Source of the DNA: Cyanidioschyzon merolae
Taxonomy: Eukaryota
DNA length: 64,000 nucleotides
Assembly: GCA_000091205.1 (NCBI GenBank)
Contig: AP006496.2
Strand: one strand, 5' to 3'
How positions within the stretch are numbered: the stretch's first letter is position 1; each line of letters begins with the position of its first letter. This document shows, piece by piece, positions 1 through 57,963 of the stretch. Under the pieces are notes generated by a model. That model did not search any database and had not been told where the DNA came from. It saw only the letters and a list, made by a program, of their open reading frames with translations. The translations under genes and the position numbers were made by a program.

Positions 1-1379
1 CCCCCCCCATTACAGCGATGATCCCAGCTCGAAAGCGTCTGTGATTTTGACGTCTTTCAATCCAGACTCGTTAGGGATTTTCCTTCGGTGGTACGGTCTG
101 AGCTCCTATGCATATGTCATTCTTTCCATCTAGCAAACTAGAGCCAATAGGGAATTATATCTGGCGCTATGATTTTTTTGGTCTTGCGGACTTGCCCACT
201 GGTAAGACCGGCGAAATTGCTGTATCGATACTGGTTTCGGGAAATCGTCCATCCCGCTGACCAGTTTCTTTCCCTTCCTCGCATTTGCTTTATCTCGGCT
301 GTGCTGATCGGTTCGGATATTGAACCCTGCGTCGCGTACCTGCCATGTGCATTCGCAGTGGCGTATCCGTCGCTGCTGCGGATGCAGTTTGGAAAGAGAG
401 CAGCGCTGGCGTACCACGGATTGCGTTGGAAATGGTGTGCTTCATGCAACATAGGTTCAAGGACGTTTATTTTCTAGGGAGCCTTCAAGTTGTTCTTGCA
501 GACCTTTTGCCTGCGGTAGCGGTAAGCGCTATACCATTTGTATACCGCAATCTAGGTGACTCTTTAGCGCAATATACCCACTCCTGGTTCAGAATCTCTA
601 CTTTTGCAGAGGAGGTGCTAAGGTGCGTCACATCACTCGCTACTGTATGGTCTCTCGGATTAGAGGTTGCGAGAGTCTCGCTGCTTGCCGACCCTCCGCC
701 AAAATTTCAGTGCTTGACCATACGCAAAGACTTCTTCCTTATACCGTCTACAGTAGGTGGCGTTAGTACTTGCTATTCCGTTCGTGTATATTATTTTTTT
801 TGTACTTTCCATATCGTGCGCCCTGCTAACGCATTGCGAACTCTGTCCGCCACTTCACTCCACGTTCCTGTTGCCGATCATGGGAAACGCGGTATTGACC
901 TGTTCTGGAGCGACTGCTCTTTCGGGGCCGCCTGCATTTGCGATCGAATTGTATCAAAGTATTGCTTTGGATTCAATGGCGTTTCTAACTTTCAGTATGT
1001 GTATTCTACTGATTTTCGCGTTCAAGGCAGAGGCGTCCGATGAGTTGTTCACTTAAAAAATGTCAGACATTTGTAATTGGAGGTAGTGGGTTTTGGGTGG
1101 CCGGTGTTGCCGGATGTCAGAAGGAAACGCGACATAGTGTCTAGCGAAGACGGTCAGGAAAGTAGAAGAAGCAACATGGTGAGGCCTTACATCGAAGGCT
1201 GCCATAGTGACGTCTGTGCGACGAGATGGTGGTGGAATCCTATATTCTTCAACATATCTATGACCCGTACGACTGATTGTTTCAAGACGCTATTAGAAAC
1301 CGCGTCGATTCGCACTCCAGGAATGCTTGTAAATCTTTTTTAGGAGGGACGCATTTGCAGATCGAGCAGCATCGCGACG

Positions 1380-3300: not shown

Positions 3301-3830
3301 CGTCGTTCGAGTGTAAAAGGCGGTGGTGGCCTGGACGCTCGGACTCGTCGTCGGTGAGCACCAGACGTTTCCGAACAGTAGCCGAACAGTAGCCGAGCGG
3401 TTCCAAAGCACTGCACCAGTTGCCACAGGAGCGACGCCCAGGCACACGACCGGGTCTCGGGAAACGCTGCAGTTGCTGGTGTACGAGCCGGTGCGTACCC
3501 GCCGAGAACGAGCAGGTCATCTTGCGCTGTGATCCCGGCACTCGAAGTGCATTCAGGTCCAGGCAGCTATTACCTCCTGTGCCTGCACGCGCAGTATCGC
3601 CGTCGGAGCGTACGCACTGTCAAGCACGTCAAACGTTCAAAGAGCTAGCTAGTCGGCGAGTAGTTTACCTTCTTCAATCAAGCGCGGAGCAGCAGCGGCA
3701 GCGTCGAGCGCCTGCCTTTGACAGCGGCCTGTCCGCAGTCGACTGTACACGCCTAACCGCTGCCCCTGGTGACCCCCGAGGCGGGACACTTTGGTGATTC
3801 CCGGGCCGGCCGTACTCCCACGGACCTAAA

Positions 3831-5528
3831 ATGGCGCCTGCTGTCAAGCGAAGAGCCGCGGACGCCACCGCCGCTTCGCTACCCGCCTCGTCGCCGTCAG
3901 CTGAGCGTGTGCAGGCGGCAGACTTGGACGTCATGCATCAGGGCCGCACCAAAGAGGACACACCACAGCATGAGCACCCGGGCGCTGACCCGCAGAAACA
4001 ACAGGCATCACCACTCGAACGACTAGTGCTGCGCTCGACTGCGCACGTACGCGCGAACCCGGACGCCTGGCTCACGGGTGCGCTCGTGCTGCTTGGACTG
4101 TGGACGCGCCTCTACCGGATCCGCTGGCCACCCGAATGCGTCTTCGATGAGGTTCACTTTGCGTCGTTCGCACACCACTACCTCAACCGCACCTACTTCT
4201 TTGATATCCACCCGCCTCTGGCGAAGCTCACGCTGGCCGCAGTCGCGAAACTCGCTGGTGACGTCCCGAATCGCGACTGGTACGTCGACAAGGTCTACCC
4301 ACCAGACAGCCGGTACTATGCGATGCGCGCGTGCGCTGGCGTCTTCGGGGCGCTCCTGCCTCCGCTAGGCTTCCGCATCGCCCGCGGGATGGGTATGTCG
4401 CGGATCGCAGCCACTAGTGTGGGCGTGTTTCTGCTCTTCGACATGCTGAACCTGATCGAGGCGCGCCATATCCTCACGGACTCGCAGCTCATCTTCTACG
4501 CTGCGCTATGCATCGATGCGTTCGTGCGGCTGTGGCGCACGCCTCCAGCGAGCCGCGCTCGACGCTGGGCTGCTGTGCGCGCCGGCCTCGCGAGCGGTGC
4601 AGCGCTCTCAGTGAAGTGGACCACGCTCGTGGTGCCCGGCCTCTTCGGCCTCGAGTCGGTTGCCGGCGCTGCGCTCGCCGCCGAGCCGCTCGAGTGGAGC
4701 ACCTGCGCGATCGTCGCCGCAACAGCCCTGCTCTTGTACGTGGCGCTCTGGTACCCGCACTTTCGGATTCTGATCTATAATGGACCAGGCGGTGACTTTA
4801 TGAGCGCCGAGTTCCAGCGGACCCTCATTGGTCGCGACGGCTACGACCCGCAGGCCCGAAAGCCGCCTTTCCTCAAGCTCGTCTGGCAGCTCAACAAGGA
4901 GATGCTGCTGGCGAACGCGCGCATCCTCGATGAGCACCAGTGGCAAGCGCGCTGGCACACATGGCCATACGTAGGCCGTGGCCTCCTTTACTGGAATCGC
5001 TGGCAGGAGGGTACGTTGGATGCTGACGGGCGACCGCTGCGCCCGCATCACGCCATGCAGATCTATCTGATCGGGAATCCGCTGCTGTTCTGGATGTGCT
5101 TGGCAGCGGTGCTTGGTACAGTGGCGGCAATGCCGTTCTTGCTGCGCCTGATTCGCCAGCGGAAAAAGCGTGGAACGAGCACGGACGCATGGGAGCGCTA
5201 CCTGCGGCTGGCAACATTCCTTCTGCTTGGCTATGCGCTCGGCATTCTCCCGTACATGCCGATCCAGCGAAGTACGTTTATCTACCACTACCTGCCGTCG
5301 CTGTTGTTCGCGGAGCTGCTTTTTGCGCACGCGGTCCTCGATCTGCCGGCGCTACCGTCGGTGCTGCAGCTGCCGCTCGCCGGTATCGTCTGGATCGTTG
5401 TCTTCTGGTGCTTCTGGTACTTCCGCGCCTGGGTCTATGGACACATCGCGCTCACCGCCGACGACCATGAGGCCATGCGCTGGATCAAGTACACGTCCAG
5501 CGTAGGCGACAACAAGGGATGGCACTGA
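3831..5528 (+). CDS. Dolichyl-phosphate-mannose--protein O-mannosyltransferase (PMT, GT39 family), lacking the MIR loop
   Basis: 565-aa ORF with the PMT signature ECVFDEVHFASFAHHYLNRTYFFDIHPPLAKL (the DE motif of loop 1) and multiple TM segments. The loop-5-flanking motifs DFMSAEFQRTL and WHTWPYVGRGLLYW are directly adjacent with about 60 aa between them, so the roughly 190-aa MIR domain is missing. Codon usage is GC3-rich. Confidence 0.85.
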   Translation: MAPAVKRRAADATAASLPASSPSAERVQAADLDVMHQGRTKEDTPQHEHPGADPQKQQASPLERLVLRSTAHVRANPDAWLTGALVLLGLWTRLYRIRWPPECVFDEVHFASFAHHYLNRTYFFDIHPPLAKLTLAAVAKLAGDVPNRDWYVDKVYPPDSRYYAMRACAGVFGALLPPLGFRIARGMGMSRIAATSVGVFLLFDMLNLIEARHILTDSQLIFYAALCIDAFVRLWRTPPASRARRWAAVRAGLASGAALSVKWTTLVVPGLFGLESVAGAALAAEPLEWSTCAIVAATALLLYVALWYPHFRILIYNGPGGDFMSAEFQRTLIGRDGYDPQARKPPFLKLVWQLNKEMLLANARILDEHQWQARWHTWPYVGRGLLYWNRWQEGTLDADGRPLRPHHAMQIYLIGNPLLFWMCLAAVLGTVAAMPFLLRLIRQRKKRGTSTDAWERYLRLATFLLLGYALGILPYMPIQRSTFIYHYLPSLLFAELLFAHAVLDLPALPSVLQLPLAGIVWIVVFWCFWYFRAWVYGHIALTADDHEAMRWIKYTSSVGDNKGWH

Positions 5529-7556
5529 AAACGACGTTATGGGAATATGCAGGCGACACAGCTCAGCAGCGTGCCCTCGAAGGAGCGCCTCGAGTGCGCA
5601 GCGGCGTTGCCAGCGGGAAATTAACCGAGGCGCACGCATCGCGCGCGCCCATGCGTGTCACGGGCACGCACCTCGATGCGTGCATCGACACCCTTGACGC
5701 CTCCATGTGATCGAATCCGCTGGGGATGCGCATGTGTGCATGCTCCAAGTGCATTTGTGACGTGCGTGCCTCGAACGATCCTTGTTTGTGACGCCTGGTT
5801 GTGCATGTAACCGCTGGGAACGCATACGTGTTGTTCTTCCAAAGACATCCACTAGACGCAGGCCTGGAAAACGCATTTCCTAGGACTTGTAGGCAGCAAA
5901 GTGGCGTACTGTCGAGCACGTCGGCACTGGGAGCGTGCTCAGCGCACGCAATAGAGCGCACAGTCTCGACTGAGGTGAAGAGGCTTGCGTCATAGATTAG
6001 TTTGTGAACTCGAATCTCTTGGCGACTGGATGCGTGGACTTTACTGACTGGCAGCTGTCGCCCGTATGGGGGGCCACAGCGGGGTGCAAGCGTGACGCTA
6101 GAGTCGCTCGCTGAGAATGGACGCTACTGTATGCTCATCAGCAGGGCTCAGTGCGCCACGACTGGTGTGCAACGCCACCGAACGCGTTTTTCGTCATAAA
6201 GGGGCGGTGTCCGTGCATTGGTGTCTCGGATATAGCACCATCCGCAAGATGCATCGCGCGCGCTCCTCCGCATTCGGATGAGCAATCGCTTCTAGCCATG
6301 CTGTAGCAGCTGATGCGCTCGGTGAATGCACGGGAGTGCCGTCCATGCCAGCGCCATCTAGGTGTCCGCGCACGTCGGGGCCGATTCGCACTGCGATACC
6401 AGGTGGCTCCGTGGCTTCGCGTCCATCGGCCCGCCATCCAAACCACTGCACCTATAGACGACTCGGCATCGCTCCGCTTCTAGCACACCGCCACCTGCTC
6501 GTGCACCCACGTTCTTGGCTGATTCGATATGACCGCGCCACCTCCGGCTATGCTGTCCAGTACGCGCAATCTGATTCCGTTACAGCGCCGTGCGCTCAAG
6601 GGTAACGCACATAGACTCCGCCCGGACCCGGCATTGACATCGACGATGCCCTCACTCCGGAGCTGGATGGCGTCTGCGGCCAGGGCCGACACGCCATGGG
6701 TGCCGGCACCTGGAGGCGGCAGCCGTGTTCCCCGTTGAGCGTCACCTGCAATGCGTGCGGCCGTGCGGCATACGTATTCGAATGATGCAACAATCCCGCA
6801 GTCGGCAATTCCCGTCTAGTGGAAAGCATTCTAAATCCTATCAATTCCAGAGATGCGCAGGCGCCGAGTGCGCCCAGAATCCATACGCAAACGCATACAA
6901 AGCGTGATGCACGGCAATAGACGCCAAACGAATGTTCTAAGCCCTCTGCCGTTCAAACGTATGCTGCGCGGATCGCACAGACCGCAGCGGGCAGCGCCAG
7001 CAGTGCAGCCGCAGTGCAGCGACATCACTGCCGAGAGATAATGAACGCGATCAAGAGTCCTACGAGAACACCGCCAACCGTCGCTACACCCGTCAGCAAC
7101 ATAGTGACGTCAACCTGGTGCAGTGGGCCCACGTCCAGGAGGACCGGCTCACGTGCGCCTATCACGAGGAAGCCCGCTTGAGCCAAGGACATACCTGCCA
7201 GTGCGCTGCGGTCAAGCGACGCCCGCAGCTGCACAATCGCAGCCTGCGGGCGCCCAACACGGGACCCTTGCAGAGCACTCGAGCTCCGGTGTCTCTGCAG
7301 GACTTGCCCGAGCACCCACGCTCGTTTGCGATCTTGCAGGCTCGCCGGGTGCAGCGGTGTCCAGCGCCGAGGCAGCACCTGCGACAGCGGCGTTCGTTCG
7401 GCACCCGAAGCGAGCCTCTCGCCAACTACAGAGAAAGCATGCAGTTGCACAAAGGCCACGTCCACGGGCAGTACCCCGAGGCAACAGGACGCACTCGCTT
7501 CCCGACCCTTGCCGGCCGAGCAGCTCGTTGGCGCTGCCATAACAGAGGCCTCAGCA

Positions 7557-7603
7557 CGGTATCGGTATCGGCACTGGCACTGGCACCGGCACCGGCACCG
7601 CTG
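7557..7603. repeat. Compound microsatellite (CGGTAT)2(GGCACT)2(GGCACC)3
   Basis: Direct reading: cggtatcggtatcggcactggcactggcaccggcaccggcaccg. Followed at about 7690-7728 by a CATGCA-rich tract (gcatgcacgcatgcacgcacgcatgcatgcat). Confidence 0.8.
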
Positions 7604-8878
7604 CACACGCTTCACGGCAGTGTCCTATTCTGGGCCTGTTGTCGATCTGCGGGCGTAGCGCAGCACGCGTTGGCGACGCGCTGCACGGAGCGCATGCACG
7701 CATGCACGCACGCATGCATGCATACTGCGATCCATGCACTTGGGTGATGTTTCCAAGTTCAGCGCCCGTACCCGTAGTCTACGGGGTGTATCCATAGATA
7801 GATGCATGCGCAGGCATAGGCGCGTGCGTGTTCGTATGCGGATGGGCAACGGCTGTGTAAAGCACAGATCAGTGTCTAGCGCTGATTCGCATCTGTTTGC
7901 ATGTGCGGAACGCAATCGTTGGTGCCGCAGTCAACATCAACGCCGTCGCCGTGGATGCTTCGGTTACAGGTGCGTCGATCGCAGCGAGCCTTTATAAGGG
8001 CTGCCTTGCATCTCCGCGAAACGCAATTCACATGCCGCAGTAGTGTCATGGGAGCACGCATCGCGCGTGTGTGTGGATACAGTGACGTGTGGCGCTGCTA
8101 GAGGCTGCCTAGCCAACTGCCGCCAAATCCAATGGAATGCTGCATCATTGGGCAATGTCGCGTACACCATTCTGTCATTCCAGCAACAAGGTGCCTCATA
8201 GAATCTGCGGAACGTTCTGCTTCTGAATCCTGCTGCGCACACAGATGCACCGGTAGATACCCTGCACACTGCACACGCATCGTGCATGCACTTCTACCAG
8301 CGGATACGAGCAGCGTCGGCATTCACCGCCGAACCGGAGCATATTCTATGTGAATAAAGCGCCCACACCCTGATCACGAATCAGAGGCTGCAGCGCCACC
8401 CAGGTCGGCCGGGTCCAGCGTGACGCATTCGCTAGCCGATACGCGACTCGTGCTGCTCAGTTGCAGCTGCTCGTTGTGCAGCCCGCCTGCGCAAGTGCAA
8501 GTGCTGCACACTGTTGCGCTCACCGCCAGCACAGAGCGTCGCATCCGAGGGCGTCCGCGCAAGGCACACGACCCGTAGCGGCCGCCTGTCCCGACAAGGA
8601 CAGTCGCAAACCGCACGCTCGCCGATACTGATCTGTGAGCAATCACACAAGTGCAGGCTGTACAGTCTCGCAACGATCAGTCGATTGATGCGTGCCTCCA
8701 CGAGTCAGCGCAGAAGATTCTATCCACTTTCAGCAGTTTTATAGAGGATAGCACGATGCTCCAGGTGCGAGTCTATGGGATATCCGCATTATTATAGGCA
8801 ATGGCACGTATCTATACAGTTTACTCTGCATAAAACTTGAGTTTCTATTCCAGGTAACCCGAGCTCGCCCACTCGAGT

Positions 8879-9868
8879 TTATCTACCACCACCATGCCGT
8901 GATTCTGGCGCTGGGCCCTCAGAACGACTGCGCGCAGACTCCTCAGCGCGAAGGCGCAGCGCCTCTAGCAGCGCCTCCAGATCGTGCCGCCAGTCGCCCG
9001 CTGGTGGTGGCTCGATGCCAAACGCTGCGAACAGGGGACCAGCATCGCCGCGGCTGCGTCTCAGCGCAGTCGAAAGCGCCTCCAGCTGCTGCCGAAACGC
9101 GGCAGATTGCAGCACGCTCTCCAGGTCGATGCTGGATGGCAGGTACTCGCGGCACAGGGCAGCGGATGCAGGTCCGAGGCCCGGCTCGCGGAGAAGCCGC
9201 TCCAGCGCGGGGCCCCAGCGCAGAAGCGCCCCGAGGTCAGGCGTATCATCGGCGCGCGCCTGCGGCTGTCGACTTGCGTCATCCGCAGCATGCACAGCAT
9301 CGGAAGCAGCGCTGGCCCCCAGACGCTGCAGCGCGTCTACGAGCGACTGCCCAAGCGCGGCGGACGACGGACGCGTCGCGCCGTCAGGTACCTGCGAGCT
9401 GAGGCCTGGCCCAGGTCGGGACTCTGCGTCGCTGAGCCGCACCTCATCTGCGTGATCCAAGCCAGCAGGGTCGTCCAGGGGACGACACTCGAGCGCGTTG
9501 CGCAGCCGCTGTGCCAGCCGCACGTCCGCGTCGCAGCGAGGCTCTTGCAGCCAAAAGAACAGCTGTAGATCCGACGACGCAAAGCCCAAGACGAACATTC
9601 TACCAGTCCGGCAGGCGTGCACGCGCCGCCAGTTCGCGTCGCCGGGGAACACGATCAGGTCCTCCTCGATTGCACGGGTTGCGCGGTCGAGCCACTGGAA
9701 GTGCACGAGGCCGTCCGCGGCTCGCACGACACGGACGCAGCCCTTGCGGCCGTCCGAGTGCACCAAACCACTGTCCAGGTACGCGCGACCTGCGCGGAAC
9801 TCCACCAGTACCTGCTCTGGAAGTTCGTCCATCTGGCGTTCCAAGCTTGAAACACGGCCGTCCCGCAC
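8879..9868 (-). CDS. RPN13: Proteasome ubiquitin receptor Rpn13/ADRM1 (Pru domain plus C-terminal DEUBAD-like helical region)
   Basis: LVEFRAGRAYLDSG...LVHFQWLDRATRAIEEDLIVFPGDANWRRVHACRTGRMFVLGFASSDLQLFFWLQEP matches the Pru domain of ADRM1 (LVEFRAGKM...HFCWKDR...EDDLIIFPDDCEFKRV...[23 protein letters not shown]). The true start may be the Met of MDELPEQVLVEF at about 9832. Confidence 0.85.
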   Translation of the reverse strand: MRDGRVSSLERQMDELPEQVLVEFRAGRAYLDSGLVHSDGRKGCVRVVRAADGLVHFQWLDRATRAIEEDLIVFPGDANWRRVHACRTGRMFVLGFASSDLQLFFWLQEPRCDADVRLAQRLRNALECRPLDDPAGLDHADEVRLSDAESRPGPGLSSQVPDGATRPSSAALGQSLVDALQRLGASAASDAVHAADDASRQPQARADDTPDLGALLRWGPALERLLREPGLGPASAALCREYLPSSIDLESVLQSAAFRQQLEALSTALRRSRGDAGPLFAAFGIEPPPAGDWRHDLEALLEALRLRAEESARSRSEGPAPESRHGGGR

Positions 9869-10927
9869 ACCAAAGTCACACTCACTCCGAGCAGCAAGGC
9901 TCGACAGTCAGCCACGCGAAAGCCGGTGTAGCGCTCACGGCTTGTCCGGTCATGGACGCCGCACTAAAACGGCGGCAGTGGCACCAAGACCGAAACTGAT
10001 AATAAAAGCTACTCCACCGACAATGAAGTACACGCTAGACGGTGCAGCAGCTTGCACCGATACGAAACGTTCAGAAGTACTAGTAGAGGCGACACACGCC
10101 GCGCACGAACGAGGTCAGGCGCTCTGAATGCCGCTCCGGGCATCGAGCTGGGAGGCGCTGGCGCCGCCACTGGTGACTGCAACCCACGAAGGGCGCAGTT
10201 CACTCATGGGGCGCGTCTCGGGCCCCCCTGTGTGCCGTTGCACTGATGCCCGCACGTTGCAGCGCAAGACTTGGCGAAGCTGTATGACGAGCCGTGCATG
10301 ACACCTGACGGCGAGCATAGCGCAGCGGTCAAGCGGCTGCAGATTCCCGATACCAGAGCGCTCCGTCCAGGTCCCTGGTGTGTATCACAGCGACATGCTG
10401 CCCCCGAGGCTCTCGTAGACGCAGCGTGTGCGTGTCCGGTGCCTCTCGCATCCATGCGCATCACAGAGAAGCGCGAGTGATTGCCAGCGCACGCACATAG
10501 TACACGTGTCCAGTGCGTTGCTTCCGTATGCACACATCCCGAAAGCACCCCGAAAGGAAATCCAATTGTACCACGTGAACCGGTCTCGTTCACCGATACG
10601 CTCTGTTCGATACGCGAATGTATGAGCAGTACAGCGAACAACCACGAAATCAATGTGCTGTTACCAGCGATGTGGCATGAAAGCATCAGCGAGCACATTG
10701 ACCCCTGTGGAATCGCTTTGTCGGAATATTGCCCTGCACGGCTTGGCAGGATCGTCCACCACAGGAATCGCACCGTGCATGACGCTGGCGTTCCGTCGCC
10801 ATCGAACGCACCTGGTGTACTGCGAAACCACCTGCCTGGCATGTCTCTGTCGTATCAAGCAGCGCATCCATCAATGAGTGCGCAGCTATTCATCTGAAAC
10901 TCGCTGCCAGCAGGCCGGCATGCACGC

Positions 10928-11005
10928 CCCGTGCCGATCCCGTGCCGATCCCGTGCCGATCCCGTGCCGATCCCGTGCCGATCCCGTGCCAGTCCAGTGC
11001 CGATT
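10928..11005. repeat. 12-bp tandem repeat (CCCGTGCCGATC) x5 plus degenerate units, followed by an (AGC)n tract at about 11050-11090
   Basis: Direct reading: cccgtgccgatc repeated five times, then ccgtgccagtccagtgccgatt. About 250 bp upstream of the FTR1 start. Confidence 0.85.
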
Positions 11006-11260
11006 GGCGGCTGGCGTGCAGCATGCGCGTGCGCCATCAATATCGGAGGAAGCAGCACGAGCAGCAGCAGCAGTAGCGGTAGTCGTAGCGTCGTGGAACC
11101 CGCCAACTTGTTCTCCCGCTCATTCTTGCCCGTTGCAGAGGCACGTAGGCGTAGAGACTCACGTTAGGTCGTTTTCTGCAAAAGAACACACTCGGTGTTC
11201 TTAAAGTACTCTCACGGGCTTTTGCATACCATCCCCGACCGTGCTAGTCCTTGCTTTATC

Positions 11261-12841
11261 ATGGTACAGCTCTTCTCACTGGCAGGCTTTATCATTACGT
11301 TTCGCGAGATCCTCGAGGCCTGCATCGTGGTCTCGATCTGTCTGGCATAACTGCGGCGCACCAAGAATGAGCGCTACCTCAGAGACGTCTGGCTGGGCGT
11401 TGCAGCCGGCGTCGGTGTGCTCATCGTCATTGGAATCGCATTCGGCATCGTTTTCTGGACGCGCGGCCAGAAGCTGTATACGGGTCTCACTGAGCTGCTC
11501 TTCGAGGCCATTGTCCGACTGGTGGCGGTAGTGCTCATCACGTGGATGATCTTCTGGATGCTCAACACGGCCGCGCACATGCGCCGCGACCTCGAGGGCG
11601 GGATAGCGCGGGCGCTGTCGAGGCGCGGCCGATGGGGCGTTGCGCTGCTCGTCTTCACGTCCGTGCTGCGTGAGGGCGTCGAGCTCATCGTATTCCTGTT
11701 CGGAATCACGGGCGGTGTCTCGTGGAGCTCGATTCCCATCGCCGCAGCCGTCGGCGTGGCCGTTGCGCTGGTCGTCGCCTGGGCAATCTACCGCGGGGCG
11801 CTCGCCTTCGATCTGCGCCTCTTCTTCGCGCTCTCGTCGCTGCTGCTGATCGCATTCGCTGCGGGCTTCCTGTCGACGGCCTTCCTGGACCTCCAGAAAG
11901 CGAACCTGTTCGGGGCATTCACGCGCAACGGCAACGAGGACGAGTCGATTCCATCCACGCAGCGGCCGTGGTGGAATGCCGCGCTCTGGTCCACCGAGGC
12001 CTGCTGCGCGGACGACGGGAACGAGTTCTTCAACCTGCTGCACGAGCTCTTCGGATACGTGGATGCGCCGACCTTCGTCTCCACTGTCGTCTACTTCGGT
12101 TACTGGACCCTGGCTGGCGTGCTCTGGATCATCGTTGAGCGACGCACCCTGGAGCGCAAACTCTGCCAAATGCACACCGGGTACCTCGTATCGACTGCGT
12201 TCCTGGCGGTAGCTGCCGTGGTGGGGCTCGTCGTCGCCGCTCGCAGCCCGACATGGAACGGCATCCTGGTGACGTGCCTGACTCTGGTGCTGGCGATCAT
12301 CGGTGTAGGTGCCGCCAGCGCACCCCATGCAGCGCTACCGCCGCGTGCGCGTTTCGCCCTCCAGGGCTCCTGCTGGATAGGCCTCGTGCTGGTAGCGTGC
12401 CTGGCGCTGGCGCTGCAGGTTGCACAGGCGATCTGCTCGCCGCAGATTGGCGCGTCGCAGTACTGCTCTATCTCCGATTTCTACTATTGGTTCGTCATCT
12501 TCTCCCCGGACTGGATCGCAAAGACACGGGACGATAACAGCTTCCACGCGCTCGCGGTGCTTACCGTGTCGATATGCTTCACGATGCTGTTCTGCCTCGG
12601 ACAGGGCCTGGTCGGCTTCTACGAGTGGAAGCGTTCAGCGCTGGCGATGCAGCGTGCTGGACAAGCGCCAGCGGCTCTCGCCAAACAGGCGAATACATCC
12701 TCGGATCTGGAAGGCGGGAAATCCACGCCGCTCGATGACTCCTCGATCGATGAGCTTACCTGGGAAGCGCTCGATTCGACGCAGCCTCCGCAGCACGCGT
12801 CGCAGATCGAGATCTCGGCGAGACGGATGCTGGCGGATTGA
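11261..12841 (+). CDS. FTR1: FTR1-family high-affinity iron permease, interrupted by an in-frame TAA at 11348-11350 (codon 30); candidate pseudogene, readthrough or sequence error
   Basis: The ATG at 11261 gives MVQLFSLAGFIITFREILEACIVVSICLA*LRRTKNERYL... The same frame continues unbroken to 12841. It contains both FTR1 RExxE motifs (REILEAC in TM1, REGVELIVFLFGITGG in TM4) and about 7 TM segments. The TAA sits where FTR1 homologues have an aromatic or hydrophobic residue (TAT or TAC would give LAYLRRTK). The first in-frame ATG downstream is at about 11546, which would remove TM1. Confidence 0.75.
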
Positions 12842-13506
12842 ATCAGGGCGCAGCGCGGCACCAGGTCACCGCCGACGACTAGGCGGTACTCATAACAGCG
12901 AGCGCAATCCATGTGCAACGCGACGTATCGCACTTGCCGATTCAAAGAGAATGACAGCGCCTGTGGTTACCCGTCGCGGAGCCGTTCGCATGGTGATAGC
13001 GTCGGCATCACCTGACACCCACTCCGTGGCGCTATGGTGCTTTGCCAAGAACGCGCCCCTGGTTGCCACAGCGTTGCGTACCAGCGAATGGATCATGCGT
13101 CGAGCGCTGCTCTGGTGCGATCATAGACAAGTTCACGTCGAATACTTTGCGCACCGCTGTACCGCATACCGATGACTCGTCTAGCATGCACTGCTACCGT
13201 ACAGTAAAGAACGCTCGTGCAATGCGTATCCCGTTTCTCGCTATCCTGAAAGACAACGGCTCCTCGAGCACACAATATCTCAGCATGCAGGAGTCGAGAC
13301 GCTCTCATCAAGCAGCGCAGCGGCTCCAGCGCCCTGCACGATTGCCCGACGAAACGCCTGGGGCGCGCCCCGATCAAATACCCGAGACACGCCATGCGCG
13401 GGAAACCTGGGGCAGTACTGTTTCGCCTGCAAGTAGGAGGGTGCACTCAAGTGATATCCAGAACTTCCCGCAGCGTGGACACGAGTGCCAACAGGTCGCT
13501 TCAAGT

Positions 13507-14421
13507 ATGCCAGACGAGATCGCTCAAGTTCGTTTTCTGATAGTCGGACGCACCGGTTGGATCGCCAACATGGTTGCAGAGCTACTTGAGCAGCGCGGTG
13601 AGCGGTACGCGTTTGCGAGCTTCCGTCTCGAGCAGCGCGAGGCCTGTGAGCGCGAACTGGACGCGCTGCGCCCACAGCGGGTCCTGAACTGTGCTGGGGT
13701 CACTGGGCGTCCGAACGTCGACTGGTGCGAGGACCACCGGCGCGAGACCGTCCGCAGTAACGTACTGGGCGTGCTGAACCTGGCGGACTGCTGCGCGTCG
13801 CGCGGGATCCACCTCACCAACTTTGCTACCGGCTGTCTATACCACTACGACGACGGCGAGCACCGGCCGACGGCTGAGGGCGGCAGACCCTTCACGGAGG
13901 ACGATCCGCCGAACTTTTTCGGTAGCTACTACAGTCGCACCAAGGCCATGGTGGAGGAGCTGCTGCGCAGCGCTTTTGACAATGTGCTCATCCTGCGACT
14001 GCGCATGCCCGTGAGCGACGACCTGTCGCCGCGCAGCTTTGTCACGAAAATCGCACGCTACGAAAAGGTTGTGAATATCCCCAACAGCATGACGGTTTTG
14101 ACGGAGCTGCTGCTAGTGGCACTGGATATGAGCGAGCGCGGCCTTACGGGCGTGTACAACTTTACCAATCCGGGTAGCATCTCGCATAACGAGGTCCTGG
14201 AGCTTTACAGAAAATATATCGATCCAAAGTTCCAATGGAAGAACTTTACGCTCGAGGAGCAGGCAAAAATCCTCAAGGCCGGCCGCTCCAACTGCGAGCT
14301 CGACGTCCGCAAACTGCTGCGGGACAATCCCGGTGCCCAGATCCGCGAGGTCCACGCCGCCATGGAGGAGGTCTTTCGGCGCATGCAGGCGAAGGGTGTC
14401 AAGCCGCTGGCTGCGCCCTAG
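13507..14421 (+). CDS. UDP-4-keto-6-deoxy-D-glucose 3,5-epimerase/4-reductase (NRS/ER, UER1-type; second half of UDP-L-rhamnose synthesis)
   Basis: FLIVGRTGWIANMVAELL (N-terminal Rossmann GxxGxxG-like motif) and NCAGVTGRPNVDWCEDHRRETVRSNVLGVLNLADCC...YSRTKAMVEELL (the YxxxK of the SDR extended family). Overall collinear with plant NRS/ER and the RHM C-terminal domain. The longer ORF 13042..14421 has a non-homologous N-terminal extension, so the start is placed at the ATG at 13507. Confidence 0.85.
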   Translation: MPDEIAQVRFLIVGRTGWIANMVAELLEQRGERYAFASFRLEQREACERELDALRPQRVLNCAGVTGRPNVDWCEDHRRETVRSNVLGVLNLADCCASRGIHLTNFATGCLYHYDDGEHRPTAEGGRPFTEDDPPNFFGSYYSRTKAMVEELLRSAFDNVLILRLRMPVSDDLSPRSFVTKIARYEKVVNIPNSMTVLTELLLVALDMSERGLTGVYNFTNPGSISHNEVLELYRKYIDPKFQWKNFTLEEQAKILKAGRSNCELDVRKLLRDNPGAQIREVHAAMEEVFRRMQAKGVKPLAAP

Positions 14422-15631
14422 TATAGCACCGCAGGTGGCGTACTTTGCGGCAAAACGGTTACGCACCGAGTGACGGGTCGATGGCGTGCGCTCCCAGGGA
14501 CGACTCGCTTTGCGTGCAGGGAAGCGACTGCGACTGCAGGCGCGCTAGCACAATCCTGCACTGGGCGAAAGGAACGGAAGCGTCATTGGCACCAGGGCAC
14601 TTATTGCCGTGTAAGGCACCTTTCGACGCGGACCTCAAGGCTGACTGCGAGGCGTTCTGGAAAGACTTGCTCCGATAGGCTAGCTCCGCTGTGGCATCCG
14701 CTACAGGCGAAATCGGATACCGGGATGATCCAACTGCAGCGCCCTTCTAATAGTGATCCGTGTAAATGACGCAAGCTTCTGAAGAGAGTACATCAAAGTG
14801 GCGCAGGCATTTGTTCCTGGCGTTCATGTGTGCCTTCGAATGCAGCATCCAGGGGCCTGCAGGCATTGGCTGGACGACTGCCTGCTAGCAGCGGTCAGGA
14901 TTACAGGGATCCAAGGGACTCGATACGTGCATACGTGCATTACTGCATTCGTGCATGCTTCCATACGTAAAAACGTGTGAATGCTGGTGAGCACTGCGCG
15001 AATATGTGCACGCGCGCACGCTGCAGCATGGGAACACAGCGTTCTCGCCACGCTCTGGCTGGGATGTCTGAGCGATGGGAACGTGCTGTCGATGCTGCCA
15101 CATAAGCAGAGTCCGTCAAGGCCGACACGCTCGAGACAGCGCTCATGAATTGCATAGTGGAGCGGATTCACGTGCGCGAACACAGGAACGAACACACAAA
15201 CAAGTCCTAGTGGCAAGGCGAGTTTCAACAGATCCCCGAAAGCGCCCACACTCCGTACCTGCCAGCAACATCACTGTCGGTCGCTATCGCGCTGCTGCCC
15301 ACAGCGCGAATGATGCACACATATCTCCTTGGATTCATGCCGCCAGCCTCTGTGTTGATCCTTCTGCCCTACACCATGATGGAAGCGCGCGATCCACAGA
15401 GTGCGCGCGCAATCGCCGCCCGCCGCATCAGCGATGCGTGCGCGGTGGCGACGCTGCTGCCGCCATCATCGGTCGCATACCTGGGACACGTGTCTCGCTA
15501 GAGATGGATCCTGTTGAAACAGAAACGCGCGCCACGATCGTGGCGTTACCGCCTGTGCAGGCAGAGCGCGGAAGTAGCCGGTGCGTGTGGTTGTGTGTGT
15601 CCGAGTCGAAAGGCGCACGTTGGCAAAATAA

Positions 15632-16762
15632 ATGTCCTCGCAGAGCACGGCGCTTTCGAACGGTGCCAAGTCGGTAACCGGTGGACAGCCCGACGGGAAC
15701 TCGGACGCGCTGGTCGTCTACGGCGACCGTCTGCGCTTCGTGCCGCGGAATATCCTTGTGACTGGCGGTGCCGGCTTTATTGCCTCGCACGTTGTCGAAC
15801 GGCTCGTGAGTCGATATCCCCATTACCGCGTGACGGTACTGGACAAGCTCGACTACTGCTCGTCGCTGAGCAACCTCGCGCAGGTGGCAAACCGACCAAA
15901 CTTCAAGTTTATTCGCGGCGATATCCGCTCGCATGACCTGGTGCTCTACGTGCTCCAGGAGGAGTGCATCGATACAGTGCTCCACTTTGCGGCGTGCACG
16001 CACGTCGACAACTCGTTCACGTCCTCGATCCTGTTTACGGAGAACAACGTGCTGGGAACGCACGTCCTCCTGGAGTGCGCACGCCAGTACGGCAAAGTGC
16101 GGCGCTTCATTCACGTCAGCACCGATGAGGTGTACGGCGGCGAGAGCAACATGGAGACAGAGTCATCGATCCTGGCACCCACGAACCCGTACGCATGTAG
16201 CAAGGCCGCCGCCGAATTCATTTGCCGCGGCTACGTCAAGTCGTTCGGATTGCCGGTGATCATCACACGCGGCAACAACGTGTACGGGCCGCACCAGTTC
16301 CCCGACAAGCTCATTCCCAAGAGTATCTGTCTGCTGGCGCAACGCCGGCCCTGCTTTGTACACGGCTCTGGTGAGCATGCACGCAACTTTTTGTACGTCG
16401 AGGACGCGGCGAGCGCCTTTGACACCATCCTGCATTGTGGCGAGACCGATGAGGTCTACAATGTAGGCTCTGAGATCGAGAAACGCAACATTGACGTTGT
16501 GCACGACATTATCGATCTCTTCGGCCTGTCTGCCGAGGCGAACCGCCACATCGAGTTTGTCAAAGATCGCACCCTCAACGATATGCGCTACAGGATCGAC
16601 TCGTCGAAGCTGCATGCGCTTGGCTGGAGGCCGCAGGTGTCCTGGGAAGAGGGCCTGCGCCGAACCAAGACCTGGTACTGTGATCCGAATAACCTGAAGC
16701 GCTGGCCGAATTATCTCAGTGGCCTCGTACCGCATCCGAGTCTCACCGAGGAGAAGCACTAG
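15632..16762 (+). CDS. UDP-glucose 4,6-dehydratase (RHM N-terminal-domain type; first step of UDP-L-rhamnose synthesis)
   Basis: ILVTGGAGFIASHVVERL (GxxGxxG), YRVTVLDKLDYCSSLSNL, HFAACTHVDNSF, STDEVYG and YACSKAAAEFICRGY (YxxxK) are the dTDP/UDP-glucose 4,6-dehydratase hallmarks. Same strand as NRS/ER, 1.2 kb downstream. Confidence 0.9.
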   Translation: MSSQSTALSNGAKSVTGGQPDGNSDALVVYGDRLRFVPRNILVTGGAGFIASHVVERLVSRYPHYRVTVLDKLDYCSSLSNLAQVANRPNFKFIRGDIRSHDLVLYVLQEECIDTVLHFAACTHVDNSFTSSILFTENNVLGTHVLLECARQYGKVRRFIHVSTDEVYGGESNMETESSILAPTNPYACSKAAAEFICRGYVKSFGLPVIITRGNNVYGPHQFPDKLIPKSICLLAQRRPCFVHGSGEHARNFLYVEDAASAFDTILHCGETDEVYNVGSEIEKRNIDVVHDIIDLFGLSAEANRHIEFVKDRTLNDMRYRIDSSKLHALGWRPQVSWEEGLRRTKTWYCDPNNLKRWPNYLSGLVPHPSLTEEKH

Positions 16763-17259
16763 GACGGCATTCATCGCGTACGCATTGAGCATGCGGCAGG
16801 CGAGAATTCGAGCGACACTGCCGCTGGTCTGTGCATCGCAGACGGCGATCCGCAGAGCAGCGTGGCATAGGATCGCCAGCGGATGCGCCTTTTGTACATG
16901 TATGACGGTTCCAAGCGTGTCTCAGGTGCGCCTCTCTCGACAAGTCTGTAATACGAGGCGCTTTCGTGTCGCCTGCAACACAGGACGCATCTGAAGCGAT
17001 GCGCACCGACGAAAGCGCGCATACTCTATCGACCGAGGGTCGTGGGCTTGCGACCTCATGATCTTGTGCCGGTTGCAGAGCGTATGTTACAACACACGAC
17101 AGCAGCAGGGCAGTTGACGCAGCACAGGTTCGCGCGCGGCAGGTACAGCGAGCTCTGGGCGGCGTCGGTTGCACCGATACGCTCTGCGCTCGACGCGCTT
17201 CTGTTGCATAAACGTGTACTGAGGCTGTGCTCCAATAACCTGCAAGACGCCTATGTCCC

Positions 17260-17904
17260 ATGCCACGCGGTTTGCAGAGGTATGCTTTCGTCGAGTTTGC
17301 GTCTGGAAGCGCGTTGTTACGGGTGCGGCGGGTGAAGCATTCGGCGTCAAGAACTAGCCGCACACCGGCACGCTGTGCTGTGTCAGAGCCGTCGCCAGCG
17401 TCACCGTCCAGTGGCGACCAGCCGACCCAGACAGTGCGTGTACGACCTGGTGAGCGGTCGCTGCGGCTGAATGCGCTACAGCGCTGGTTGCTCGGCCGAC
17501 TGAGGCGAAGCCTCGAGCGCCTCTCCCCCGGCAACGTGCCCAACCTGCTTAGGAGCGCCGTCGCGCGGGCGCGTGGTGCCCCCGCGGACCCACCGCCCTT
17601 GGACGATGACTACCTCGACAGTGTGCTGCTCCCAGAGTCAGATGAGCGGCACTTTATATCGCCGGCACTCCGACGCGTCCTGCGCGACGCGCCTGCGCAG
17701 CCTGCCAAGGGCGTTTACACAAGCGACCCGTCGCGGACGTTCTGGGAGCAACTGATCCTCTGGGCAGGCGTGGTGCTCGTCGCTCTCGCCGTCCTGCGCG
17801 TCCTTTGGCTCTTTATCAGTGCTATCCTGGGAATTTCGCTGAGTCTCATCGTCATCGCCGTCGTCACCGTGTTCGTTTTCGTGGCGTTCACAGTACTCGG
17901 CTAG
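17260..17904 (+). CDS. Hypothetical tail-anchored/C-terminal TM protein
   Basis: 214-aa ORF ending in a strongly hydrophobic stretch (WAGVVLVALAVLRVLWLFISAILGISLSLIVIAVVTVFVFVAFTVLG). No recognisable domain. Ends 15 bp from the convergent ORF 17919..19052. Confidence 0.3.
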   Translation: MPRGLQRYAFVEFASGSALLRVRRVKHSASRTSRTPARCAVSEPSPASPSSGDQPTQTVRVRPGERSLRLNALQRWLLGRLRRSLERLSPGNVPNLLRSAVARARGAPADPPPLDDDYLDSVLLPESDERHFISPALRRVLRDAPAQPAKGVYTSDPSRTFWEQLILWAGVVLVALAVLRVLWLFISAILGISLSLIVIAVVTVFVFVAFTVLG

Positions 17905-17918
17905 AGAATTGGGAACTA

Positions 17919-19052
17919 TCAGGGAACCGTACCGCTCCCAAACACATCCACGGGCTCATCGCAGAGCTGCCGACGAAGCAGGTGCAGCTGCGTACGCAGC
18001 CGGTAACCCCGCGGCTCCGGCACCGTACGCGCAACCTGCGTCCAAGCAGCAAGCACCGTGCGAAGCTGTTGCAAGACATGCCGACGCATCGAATGTATCG
18101 CCGCGGCAATGTCGGGAACGACATTCCAATCCAGCAGGAGCAAGTGCATCGCATCCACCATCCACTCTAGATCACTCGCATCGGAAGCGCGTCCCGACGT
18201 GCGGCCGGCCTCATAGCGTGGCAGGCACAGCGCGCCAGCGACACGTGCAAGTAGCATAACCGACGCGTGCCCTGCATCCGCCTCGGACGCACCATCATCG
18301 ATGCGGGCAACTGCAGACTCCAGTGCCTCAACCTGCAATTCAGTACGACGCGATACCCAGCTCTCCAGGAGACGCGCACATAGACACTTTTGAAGCCAAC
18401 GCGAGCGCCCTCGTGGTGGAATCACCCAAATCAAGGCAACGAGCGCCGGCAGCCAGCATCGTGTCAAGTGATCGTGCCCACAGAGGCGGCAATGCGGCAC
18501 GTCGTCGCGCACGCATCGGCACCAGCACGCAATCGCCGCATCAGTGGACACGCGATCCGCTGCGATGCCGATGACCTCTGCCAGCTGCGTGCGCCAATGA
18601 CGTGCCATCGCTGCTTGGCATGTGTAGATCGCCAGCACGTCGTCGATAAACGCCAGGAGCTGCTCGTCATTCCATGCTGCGGCGCGCAGGTTGCGTTTCA
18701 GCAGGTGCCAGAACGGCTCGAGGGTGCTGCGTATCTGCGTTAGCGCAGGCTCCGCAGCCGGGTTTTGTGTCGTCACCGCGGCTGCTGCTGTCTCCAGCAG
18801 CTGGTGCACGAACGCGCCCGGAAGCGTCAGAACGCGCTTCAAGCGGTGAGCGTGGCGATAGGCTGGGCATAGGGTCGACACTCGTGAGCTCGAGGCGCGT
18901 TTCGAATGGACAGGCTCGTCCAGCGCGCACACATCGCACCAGCCCAGGAGGCCGAGAGGAGAACGCGCGAGGGCCATGCAACCCAAGCGTCGCAGCGTCA
19001 CGTGCAGAGCGCCCATGGCTAGCATGTGTTGATCCCGGGGGGTATCACACAT
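17919..19052 (-). CDS. Hypothetical protein (377 aa, predicted helical), no recognisable family
   Basis: Long ORF with GC3-rich codon usage in an otherwise ORF-poor stretch. No motif I recognise. Confidence 0.4.
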   Translation of the reverse strand: MCDTPRDQHMLAMGALHVTLRRLGCMALARSPLGLLGWCDVCALDEPVHSKRASSSRVSTLCPAYRHAHRLKRVLTLPGAFVHQLLETAAAAVTTQNPAAEPALTQIRSTLEPFWHLLKRNLRAAAWNDEQLLAFIDDVLAIYTCQAAMARHWRTQLAEVIGIAADRVSTDAAIACWCRCVRDDVPHCRLCGHDHLTRCWLPALVALIWVIPPRGRSRWLQKCLCARLLESWVSRRTELQVEALESAVARIDDGASEADAGHASVMLLARVAGALCLPRYEAGRTSGRASDASDLEWMVDAMHLLLLDWNVVPDIAAAIHSMRRHVLQQLRTVLAAWTQVARTVPEPRGYRLRTQLHLLRRQLCDEPVDVFGSGTVP

Positions 19053-20823
19053 CTGCTGAGCGGCTCACTCAAACGGACGGTGACTTGACGTCCGAATTCT
19101 AATCATTCTAGCATGGCCCCATCTATGCTAGAAAACAAGTTCATCTGGTTCTAGCGAGCATGCTAAACTTCGATGCGCTTTTCACCTCTATCAATATCAA
19201 GCTTTGAGGCTCGTTCTGCAACCGCTTCGCTTTCTTCCCCCTCATTGTCGGTTTTGAGTACGCGAGTCTTTCGATTTCCATAGGCTCCTGCATATGGAGT
19301 CGGAGCAAGTAAAATCCAGGGTACCTGTCTGTTATCTCTGTCCCAGAGTAGCGCTGAGCGCAACGTATCGCAAGCTAGGGCGCCCACCCAATGAAACTGT
19401 GCTTGAAGGCGTTCTGTCAGGGAATGGCGCCCCTTGGTGGGAGCGGAGTGCACCTTTTTCCGAGATGCTGCAGAATATCTTTGGTACTCCGACGGGATAC
19501 ATCCCAAGGCGTAGCTGGTGCACATGAGCGTGCTGTGGCTTGTTTGATGAACAAGAAGTATATATAATATTTACGATTTATGCTTCGGTCATCTTTATTC
19601 TTCACGTTTCGCCGGAACTCGGCGATCCACAAATATACGAAGCCTACGAAACGAGCACCAACCCGCACGGCAATTTCAGTGACAGCGCTATCACCATCGA
19701 GCACCAGCTCGTAACGAGGACGACTTCAGGGATAGAAACGTGCATTCACTTCCATGAATCTGTTCTTCAAGGCCCCGCATGACGTGCTCAATCGCGGTTG
19801 ACACACGAAGAAGAGCTTTGGTTATCTAGCAGGACTTTCCTCTGTTTTTTTATTTTCTTCGGATAGAAGCCTTCGATCGGGGTCTTTTCTGTGATCAAAC
19901 AAGTACCGGAAGGCAATTCAAGTTTGAGAAAATGTACAGGAATTTCAATCTGCCCATATTCCTTTCGTGCAAATCGGCAATAAACGCCCCACACGTGGCC
20001 GTCGCTGTGAGTACTCGAGTCCGATTCCAGTATTCTTCGCCGAGCTGAATGAAAAGACGAGAGCCTCTGGAAGCCAATCCCGCGAGAATAATGATGCTTC
20101 TGTGGAATGCCGTTTCGCGTGTTGCCCCTCGGCGAAAAGGTATCGTTCTTCGAACGAGATCTGTTTTGTATCATAAAAGGTTAAACAAGCTTTCGGAATG
20201 AGCTGGTGAATTTTGCGCTAATATACGACATGGAAGTCCTATTCTTTGTCAATCAAACTGCACGGATTTTTGCAATAAGGAGTTCTTTCTGCATAAAAAT
20301 CAAAAACTTGAAGAATGCGTCTGATTTGCAGACAACATCTAAGGAGACCAGAATTATGTACCCTTGTGTTGAGGAATTGGATAATTGTGAGGTTAGCTTT
20401 GTAGACCGTCGTCCGAAGATCCGCGATAATCATGATTCTGCAGATTCAACGGATTTCGGTGGGAAAGATTCGAAAGTGACGCACCAAACCGACCCCGGAG
20501 GAACCTCTTTCTACCAACGAATCTGCAATCAAATATTGTGGTGCATGCGTTGCGTAAACCGTATAGGTAGAAATTGGAAAACGGATCGAAAAGCAACAAC
20601 AGAACGAGCAATTCAAAGTCTCATTGTTGTCGGACACGGGTCAAGTACTCTGTGACCGTGGCAATCGACGTCGTCCAAACCCGCGCGCACAAAGAATCTT
20701 GGATTCTGAAGGGAATGCTCTCAACTGGAGATAATTCTTATGTTATATTGAGCTCTGGCTCGCAGGCAGAGTACGTTGAGATTACGTCAGTCAATGTACA
20801 ATTTACGAATAGGTAAATAAATA

Positions 20824-25375: not shown

Positions 25376-26090
25376 CTCGAACGCAAGGCGGAGATGAAGC
25401 TGAGAGGCGAAAAAATGAAGAGTGGGAGAGACGGAAGGCTGTCCTAATGGGTAAGCGCTTCAACGGCGTTCCAGTGTGCAACCTCAAGTCACATTTTGTG
25501 AGTATCGACTCCAGAGTCCTTGACGCCGCATGAAAGAGATCAGTCCCGAGTTCGATGTTAGCAGGGAGGAGTTCTCCGGCGAAAACCGGGAGACCCACTG
25601 GAAGAATATCTTCGATTTCAAACGTCTGAGAGTGAGCAAGCAAACGGTATTCACTGGTTTGATCGAAACCGATGGAGTAGCCTTGTGTGTACACTATCGG
25701 CGGTTGAAGAAAGATCGGCCAGTTCCGCCCTCGGCTGCGCCCGTGACGAAGGATGGAGAAAAGGAGGAGTCGGATCCTGCGATGCAGGAGGTGGAGGATA
25801 ACGACTTTGTCGTTGACGTGGCGAAGGATGAAGATGAGAAGGAGGCGGATCCCACGACGCAGGAGGTGCAAGATAATGACCTTGTCGTCGACGCTGCGAG
25901 GCATGAAGATGAGAAGAAGGCGGATCCTGTGATGCAGGAGGTAGAGGATGACAACCTTGTCGTTGACGCGGCGGAGCATGAAGAAAACAAGAAGGCGGGT
26001 TCTGAGAAGCAGAAAGTGCAGGAAAACGACTTTGTCGTTGATGTGACGAAGCATGAAGTTGAGAAGGAGGCGGAACCTGCGACGTAGGAG

Positions 26091-57873: not shown

Positions 57874-57963
57874 ACGCGTGCCCGCTTGAGACGACCCGCA
57901 CCATCAACGCCGCTCGAAAGTCGAACGGCGCCAACGGTGTACAGTAGTGGCGGCAACCGCGCC

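What the first reader, a model, noticed from the sequence alone, without database searches (positions are those of the whole stretch)
11261..12841. FTR1 iron permease with a single in-frame TAA at codon 30, between TM1 (RExxE motif 1) and the rest of an otherwise intact gene
The reading frame opens with MVQLFSLAGFIITFREILEACIVVSICLA-TAA-LRRTKNERYL... and continues for 474 more codons with no other lesion. The second REGVE motif, all TM segments and the acidic C-terminal tail are conserved, and a normal stop closes the frame at 12841. Homologues have Tyr, Phe or Leu at the TAA position, which is one substitution from TAT or TAC. Three readings are possible. It could be a very young pseudogene. 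It could be a programmed-readthrough or selenoprotein-unlike recoding site. It could be a base-call error. Because the standard code appears to hold elsewhere in the window, it is not a reassigned codon. Reinitiation at the next in-frame ATG (about 11546) would delete TM1 and the essential first RExxE motif.
Basis: seen in the sequence. Interest (0 to 1): 0.55.

Follow-up and report, generated by a model that had tools for sequence, protein, structure and literature searches.

The report
Nonsense-mutated subtelomeric iron permease copy
One of four near-identical iron-permease gene copies at chromosome ends of the red alga Cyanidioschyzon merolae has a single base change that creates a stop at codon 30, so it is most likely an ordinary, very young, redundant dead copy and not a recoding site.

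Summary
Window 11261-12841 is an FTR1-family ORF whose only lesion is TAA at 11348-11350 (codon 30).

The window is the left end of Cyanidioschyzon merolae 10D chromosome 14; it opens with a telomere unit. The gene is CMN003C ("CmFTR4"). GenBank annotates it as a 431-aa protein (BAM81154.1) starting at Met96, identical to the window from that codon on.

[quoted passage not shown] Two paralogs are intact at 526 aa with Tyr30. The chromosome 17 copy is also annotated at 431 aa.

Nine C. merolae-type environmental contigs read TAC at this codon and six Cyanidiococcus-type contigs read TAT. None reads TAA, so the stop is one private C-to-A change.

TAA terminates the neighbouring RPN13 gene. The stop context is not a known leaky one, and no significant downstream RNA structure was found. 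Met96 lies inside TM3, so a reinitiated product would lack TM1-TM3 and the first RExxE motif.

Best reading: a young nonsense pseudogene in a redundant subtelomeric family (about 0.75). A sequencing or PCR error remains possible (about 0.13). Low interest; the useful by-product is an annotation correction.

The parts
1..11 (.). Remnant of the telomere repeat (CCCCCCCCATT, the reverse complement of AATGGGGGG). It marks the window as starting at a chromosome's left end.
   Evidence: sequence. The telomere unit is given in PMC1955436 and in PMC9812998 Supplementary Dataset 2.
6209..19065 (.). The part of the subtelomeric duplicated block shown here to be homologous to other copies: 98.6-98.8% identical to metagenome contigs L001 and L002. 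The published extent on chromosome 14 is 12-21558.
   Evidence: PMC9812998 Supplementary Dataset 5.
3831..5528 (+). [quoted passage not shown]
   Evidence: PF02366 at 2.3e-37 and PF16192 at 1.4e-35.
8879..9832 (-). RPN13 (317 aa from its first ATG). It ends in TAA, which shows TAA is a normal terminator here.
11261..12841 (+). Full-length FTR1-family iron permease frame (CMN003C / CmFTR4): 526 codon positions, interrupted only at codon 30.
11261..11350 (+). The 29-codon N-terminal remnant ORF (TM1 with the first RExxE motif), including the TAA.
11303..11317 (+). RExxE motif 1 (REILE, codons 15-19). R15, E16 and E19 are invariant in 16 aligned sequences.
11348..11350 (+). Premature TAA (codon 30). 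Base 11350 is A here and C in every other C. merolae-type copy (TAC, Tyr).
11367..11531 (+). Out-of-frame (+1) 54-codon ORF whose AUG is the first one downstream of the TAA. It would intercept some reinitiating ribosomes before Met96.
11546..12841 (+). The CDS as annotated in GenBank (BAM81154.1 / XP_005537190.1, 431 aa), starting at Met96 inside TM3.
11669..11683 (+). RExxE motif 2 (REGVE, codons 137-141). R137, E138, G139 and E141 are invariant.
13507..14421 (+). RfbD/RmlD-like dTDP-4-dehydrorhamnose reductase (304 aa), an intact block member.
15632..16762 (+). RfbB-like dTDP-glucose 4,6-dehydratase (376 aa), an intact block member.

Best explanation
The TAA is a real, recent C-to-A point mutation (TAC Tyr30 to TAA) in one copy of a four-copy subtelomeric iron-permease family of Cyanidioschyzon merolae 10D. 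The copy is CMN003C, about 11 kb from the left telomere of chromosome 14. Translation from the authentic AUG ends after 29 residues, so this copy makes no functional permease. Two intact 526-aa paralogs on chromosomes 12 and 10 cover the function, so the loss is tolerated. The rest of the ORF still looks perfect because too little time has passed for further lesions, and gene conversion between subtelomeres may also have kept it uniform. Shown: the stop, its uniqueness, the paralog family, the subtelomeric position, and the standard use of TAA. Inferred: that the mutation exists in the organism and not only in the assembly, that the copy is non-functional, and that the chromosome 17 copy carries the same or a similar 5' lesion.
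For: The stop is present and is the only lesion. The organism and gene are identified by a 99% match to C. merolae 10D proteins, and BAM81154.1 (431 aa) is identical to the window from codon 96. The window starts with a telomere unit, and its gene order PMT, RPN13, FTR1, RfbD, RfbB matches the subtelomeric block reported on chromosomes 10, 12, 14 and 17 (PMC1955436; PMC9812998). Two 10D paralogs are intact at 526 aa with Tyr30. Nine distinct C. merolae-type contigs read TAC and six Cyanidiococcus-type contigs read TAT at codon 30; none reads TAA. The coding sequence diverges 0.38-0.44% from other copies against 1.1-1.8% for the intergenic flanks, and dN/dS is 0.15-0.23, so constraint held until recently. 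Only Y30* and S102N are private to this copy at protein level. Lesions recur in this family: the chromosome 17 paralog is also annotated at 431 aa and shares the otherwise rare Ser405 with the window's copy, and contig L002 has an independent 1-bp deletion at codon 234. TAA terminates RPN13 in the same block.
Against: No independent read or contig confirms the TAA. Exact look-ups for products of a TAA allele found nothing, and scans of other collections found nothing. Chromosome ends of this assembly were finished with Taq-PCR-based methods. A nickel-stress RNA-seq study reports CMN003C as a differentially expressed transcript (PMC12112623), so the locus may still be transcribed, although reads from paralogs about 99.6% identical are hard to assign. 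Cho et al. 2023 do not flag this copy as pseudogenised.
Confidence: 0.75

Rival explanations
1. The A at 11350 is a sequencing, PCR or assembly artefact in the Sanger reference, and the real chromosome 14 copy reads TAC and is intact.
For: Every other DNA copy retrieved reads TAC or TAT. The rest of the ORF is flawless, with dN/dS of 0.15-0.23. The region is a four-copy repeat about 98.7% identical, which is hard to assemble. Chromosome ends were completed with Taq-based PCR methods.
Against: The gene lies about 11 kb from the telomere, probably beyond the short PCR-finished termini (inference). The genome is described as finished without gaps or ambiguities. A random single-base error that creates a stop in a 1.6-kb ORF is rare a priori. 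The same copy has a second private change, S102N, consistent with real lineage-specific mutation. The chromosome 17 paralog was independently given the same 431-aa model, which suggests a second locus with a 5' lesion.
Confidence: 0.13
2. The copy remains partly functional. Either low-level near-cognate readthrough of UAA (for example by tRNA-Tyr, which would restore the wild-type residue) yields some full-length permease, or reinitiation after the 29-codon ORF yields the annotated Met96 protein with a regulatory or dominant-negative role.
For: The short ORF of 29 codons is of a length compatible with eukaryotic reinitiation (established knowledge), and Met96 is the next in-frame AUG. The transcript is reported as expressed and regulated. 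The base after the stop is C, the weakest tetranucleotide context for termination (general knowledge).
Against: The stop is not conserved in any of 15 other DNA copies or in the orthologues, whereas a programmed site would be. UAA is the least leaky stop, and UAA-CUG matches no known readthrough motif such as UGA-CUAG or UAG-CARYYA (sequence). The downstream RNA fold is not significant (z = -1.74, 13 of 200 shuffles as good), and intact paralogs share that sequence. An out-of-frame AUG at 11367 opens a 54-codon ORF ending 15 nt before Met96 and would capture reinitiating ribosomes. The Met96 product would start inside TM3 and lack TM1, TM2 and the invariant first RExxE motif. In yeast Ftr1p both RExxE motifs are required for iron transport (established knowledge, not tested here).
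Confidence: 0.05
3. The TAA lies in an intron, is removed by RNA editing, or reflects a variant genetic code.
For: None beyond the presence of the stop.
Against: The frame is colinear with homologues, without any gap, across codon 30, and Ala29 and Leu31 are invariant. C. merolae is listed with only 27 introns. RPN13 in the same block ends in TAA, and PMT, RfbD and RfbB end in TGA, TAG and TAG.
Confidence: 0.01

Closest known systems
[quoted passage not shown]
   Same: It is the same locus. The 431-aa annotated protein is identical to the window's frame from Met96 to the stop.
   Different: The database model hides the lesion by starting at Met96. The window shows a further 95 homologous codons upstream, with one TAA at codon 30.
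CML004C (BAM80647.1, chromosome 12) and BAM80403.1 (chromosome 10), the intact 526-aa paralogs in the same subtelomeric block
   Same: They are about 99% identical in protein sequence, sit in the same five-gene block, and have the same 11 hydrophobic segments and two RExxE motifs.
   Different: They have Tyr at codon 30 and Ser at codon 102. Each also has a few private substitutions: E234, M320 and Q342 in CML004C; S219, S355 and F473 in the chromosome 10 copy.
Subtelomeric gene duplications in Cyanidiales (Nozaki et al. 2007, PMC1955436; Cho et al. 2023, PMC9812998)
   Same: The block M, RPN13, I, R, D at chromosome 14 positions 12-21558 is listed there. That work also marks pseudogenised members of other subtelomeric families (P, T, H) with angle brackets.
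   Different: The iron permease on chromosome 14 is not marked as pseudogenised in that table.
Yeast Ftr1p and bacterial EfeU/FTR1 permeases (Pfam PF03239)
   Same: They share the seven-TM core with two RExxE motifs in TM1 and TM4. The Pfam match is E=6.5e-47, and the nearest non-cyanidialean relatives are bacterial proteins of about 290 aa at 31-38% identity.
   Different: The cyanidialean proteins carry a C-terminal extension of about 240 aa with four more hydrophobic segments. No solved structure matches by sequence.

Membership tests
FTR1/EfeU iron permease family (PF03239) | Significant match to the family profile over the seven-TM core | tested here: met
   160.6 bits against a cutoff of 25.3, E=6.5e-47, residues 7-282 (codon 30 read as Tyr).
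FTR1/EfeU iron permease family (PF03239) | Two RExxE motifs (TM1 and TM4) | tested here: met
   REILE at codons 15-19 and REGVE at codons 137-141. R, E and E are invariant in the 16-sequence alignment.
FTR1/EfeU iron permease family (PF03239) | Uninterrupted ORF able to encode both motifs in one polypeptide | tested here: not met
   TAA at codon 30 separates motif 1 from motif 2.
FTR1/EfeU iron permease family (PF03239) | Iron transport activity with a partner oxidase or P19-type protein | not testable with these tools
   No partner gene lies in the duplicated block. PMC12112623 mentions a P19-type gene, CMG092C, elsewhere in the genome.
Programmed stop-codon readthrough | Stop codon conserved at the same position in orthologues and paralogs | tested here: not met
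   15 of 15 other DNA copies have TAC or TAT. All 12 full-length close proteins have Tyr.
Programmed stop-codon readthrough | Known leaky context (UGA-CUAG, UAG-CARYYA) or a stimulatory 3' RNA structure | tested here: not met
   The context is UAA-CUG-CGG. The fold of the 100 nt after the stop has z = -1.74, with 13 of 200 shuffles as stable.
Selenocysteine or pyrrolysine recoding | UGA (Sec) or UAG (Pyl) codon | tested here: not met
   The codon is TAA.
Stop-codon reassignment (variant nuclear code) | The codon occurs in-frame in conserved genes and is not used as a terminator | tested here: not met
   RPN13 ends with TAA, and the other block genes are intact ORFs under the standard code.
Young nonsense pseudogene in a duplicated family | A disabling lesion absent from paralogs and orthologues, with intact redundant copies present | tested here: met
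Young nonsense pseudogene in a duplicated family | The lesion is real in the organism's DNA (independent reads) | not testable with these tools
   The 10D gene models are not indexed. No TAA-bearing contig was found.
Young nonsense pseudogene in a duplicated family | Relaxed constraint, seen as excess nonsynonymous changes or further lesions | tested here: inconclusive
   Private changes are too few: Y30*, S102N and three synonymous sites relative to environmental copies. This fits a very recent event but lacks statistical power.

The most novel reading that the evidence does not exclude
The chromosome 14 copy, and perhaps the chromosome 17 copy, is kept as a low-output allele. Near-cognate tRNA-Tyr readthrough of UAA would restore the wild-type permease at a few per mille. 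Alternatively, reinitiation at Met96 would give an N-terminally truncated membrane protein that modulates the intact paralogs. Either way, subtelomeric copy number would be converted into graded dosage.
Probability: 0.04. Interest if true: 0.4.

Novelty: new member of a known kind. Interest (0 to 1): 0.12.

Why it matters
Its main value is as an annotation correction. BAM81154.1 (CMN003C), and probably BAM81942.1 on chromosome 17, are modelled as 431-aa "iron permeases" that start inside TM3. Transcriptome papers count them as transporters (CmFTR4), but they are most likely dead copies. That would halve the effective FTR1 gene count of C. merolae from four to two.

It also gives a dated example of gene birth and death in the subtelomeric duplications of a very compact genome. 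Finally, it warns that expression and ribosome-profiling data for this family are confounded by paralogs about 99.6% identical.

Tried and rejected
- **Exact look-up of the four NCBI gene models to fetch paralog DNA:** none was on record. The chromosome 17, 12 and 10 DNA could therefore not be read, and whether chromosome 17 shares the TAA remains inferred.
- **Exact look-up of six products a gene caller would derive from a TAA allele** (GTG starts at codons 53, 88 and 91, on the chromosome 14 and chromosome 17 backgrounds): none is in the collection.
- **Exact-pattern scans for the site with N at the variable base:** no matches in the GTDB genomes or in IMG/VR.
- **Look-up through the neighbouring RPN13 protein:** ten contigs were returned. 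Four reach codon 30, two of them the same contigs as L001 and L081, and all read TAC.
- **Literature searches:** searches for CmFTR1-4 and for the locus tags found only the nickel-stress and ribosome-profiling papers. Neither mentions the stop. The ribosome-profiling supplements are not held.
- **Intron, RNA editing and reassigned code:** rejected, as set out under the rival explanations.
- **Rfam and tRNA scans of the window:** nothing found.
- **Solved structures:** no relative by sequence.

Full report
**Observation.**
Window 11261-12841 (+) opens with ATG, runs for 29 sense codons, hits TAA at 11348-11350, and continues in the same frame for 496 sense codons to TGA at 12839-12841. There is no other stop or frameshift. 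With codon 30 read as Tyr, the protein matches Pfam FTR1 (PF03239) over residues 7-282 at E=6.5e-47. It has REILE at codons 15-19 and REGVE at codons 137-141, and eleven hydrophobic segments.

**What the window is.**
[quoted passage not shown] The 90% cluster holds four 10D entries:
- BAM80647.1: 526 aa, on the 859,119-bp chromosome.
- BAM80403.1: 526 aa, on the 839,707-bp chromosome.
- BAM81154.1: 431 aa, on the 852,727-bp chromosome.
- BAM81942.1: 431 aa, on the 1,232,258-bp chromosome.

BAM81154.1 is identical to the window's frame from Met96 to the end, including the otherwise unique Asn102. The window's first eleven bases are CCCCCCCCATT, the reverse complement of the C. merolae telomere unit AATGGGGGG (unit from PMC1955436). 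So the window is the left end of chromosome 14, and the gene is its third gene, CMN003C, called CmFTR4 in PMC12112623.

**Genomic context.**
Pfam annotation gives this gene order:
- PMT at 3831-5528 (+)
- RPN13 at 8879-9832 (-)
- the permease at 11261-12841 (+)
- RfbD at 13507-14421 (+)
- RfbB at 15632-16762 (+)

This is the subtelomeric block that Nozaki et al. 2007 drew at chromosome ends. Cho et al. 2023 list it on chromosomes 10 (right end), 12, 14 and 17 (left ends), with chromosome 14 coordinates 12-21558. It is also present in two Cyanidiococcus chromosomes. Their table marks pseudogenised genes with angle brackets; the chromosome 14 permease is not marked. Two metagenome contigs are 98.6-98.8% identical to window 6209-19065, which confirms that the duplicated segment spans many kilobases.

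**The lesion.**
Nine distinct C. merolae-type contigs that cover the site all read TAC. These come from JGI and ENA metagenomes and Logan assemblies. Six Cyanidiococcus-type contigs read TAT. All 12 full-length proteins in the cluster have Tyr30. In more distant, mostly bacterial relatives the residue is Tyr, Phe or once Cys, between invariant Ala29 and Leu31. The TAA is thus a single private C-to-A transversion at 11350.

The coding sequence differs from other copies at only 0.38-0.44% of sites, against 1.1-1.8% plus indels in the flanking intergenic DNA. dN/dS against four close copies is 0.15-0.23. So the ORF was constrained, or homogenised with constrained copies, for nearly all of the time since the copies diverged. 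Apart from Y30*, the only protein-level change private to this copy is S102N. The event is therefore recent, and there are too few substitutions to test for relaxed selection.

**Recoding readings.**
- TAA is used as a terminator by RPN13 in the same block.
- The codon is UAA, so selenocysteine and pyrrolysine are excluded.
- The context UAA-CUG matches no known readthrough motif.
- The 100 nt downstream fold no better than 13 of 200 shuffles (z = -1.74), and intact paralogs share that sequence.
- A programmed site should be conserved, and this one is unique.

**Reinitiation.**
The first AUG after the stop is out of frame, at 11367. It opens a 54-codon ORF ending at 11531, 15 nt before the Met96 AUG at 11546. 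Met96 lies inside the third hydrophobic segment, residues 83-101. The annotated 431-aa product would therefore lack TM1, TM2, most of TM3 and the invariant first RExxE motif. From what is established for yeast Ftr1p, where both RExxE motifs are required, such a product should not transport iron. This step is inference, not tested here.

**Real mutation or artefact.**
I could not reach reads or the DNA of the other three 10D paralogs. No TAA-bearing contig or product turned up elsewhere.

Arguments for a real mutation:
- The genome is a finished Sanger assembly.
- The same copy carries a second private substitution.
- The chromosome 17 paralog was independently modelled at 431 aa and shares the rare Ser405 with this copy. 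That is most simply explained by the same 5' lesion at a second locus.

Arguments for caution:
- Chromosome ends were finished with Taq-PCR methods.
- The region is a four-copy repeat.

I put the real mutation at about 0.75, an artefact at about 0.13, a functional readthrough or reinitiation product at about 0.05, and intron, editing or variant-code readings at about 0.01. The remaining few per cent is left unassigned.

**Comparison with what is known, and verdict.**
This is an FTR1/EfeU-family gene by profile and motifs, but it fails the requirement of an uninterrupted ORF. It meets none of the tested criteria for programmed readthrough or codon reassignment. It fits the ordinary pattern of a newly disabled member of a redundant, rapidly exchanging subtelomeric family; contig L002 shows an independent 1-bp deletion in another copy.

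The locus, its truncated model and the duplication are all in the public record. What seems not to be stated there is that the 431-aa models are artefacts of a codon-30 stop, and that these copies are probably dead. Interest is low. The practical value is in correcting the annotation and in interpreting paralog-confounded expression data.

Noticed in passing
window 11261-12841, compared with CML004C (P0001): The ribosome-profiling paper PMC11808204 reports, as unexplained, that footprints on the paralog CML004C are seen only in the middle of the ORF. CML004C's only unique residues (E234, M320, Q342) lie in the middle, and its 5' and 3' parts are identical to the other paralogs. The pattern is probably a unique-mapping artefact and not biology.
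   Followed up: partly
L002 about 1815 (equivalent to window 11960, codon 234): Metagenome contig L002 carries an independent 1-bp deletion in its copy of the permease, giving the 316-aa product P0004. It is either a second pseudogenisation in this family in nature or a metagenome assembly error.
   Followed up: partly
window 12100-12841 (codons about 285-526): The cyanidialean permeases have a C-terminal extension of about 240 aa with four extra hydrophobic segments and an acidic tail. The bacterial relatives of about 290 aa that are their nearest non-cyanidialean hits lack it. Its function is unknown.
   Followed up: no
window 23695-27131, 34645-36967, 45910-47817, 57926-61151 (also 2330-3328, 29967-30866): A family of dispersed repeats 76-97% identical, in both orientations, in lower-GC and strongly skewed stretches. 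They are presumably transposable-element remnants interspersed with unique genes just inside the subtelomere.
   Followed up: no
window 52017-52244: A perfect tandem duplication of a 114-bp unit (100% identity), lying between the Fe/Mn superoxide dismutase gene (50776-51819) and the 3' end of the 1771-aa helicase-like ORF (52558-57873, minus strand).
   Followed up: no
window 37384-38304: An ORF with a trefoil (P-type) domain, a domain typical of the most abundant subtelomeric gene family in Cyanidiales. Here it lies about 37 kb from the telomere, flanked by the dispersed repeats.
   Followed up: no
window 13507-14421: The chromosome 14 RfbD copy differs from the environmental copy L081 at two visible residues: Ile5 versus Ser, and Leu versus Pro in the motif TELLxVALD. 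The ORF also extends upstream to a TTG at 13042, which gene callers on some contigs used to give a 399-aa model.
   Followed up: no
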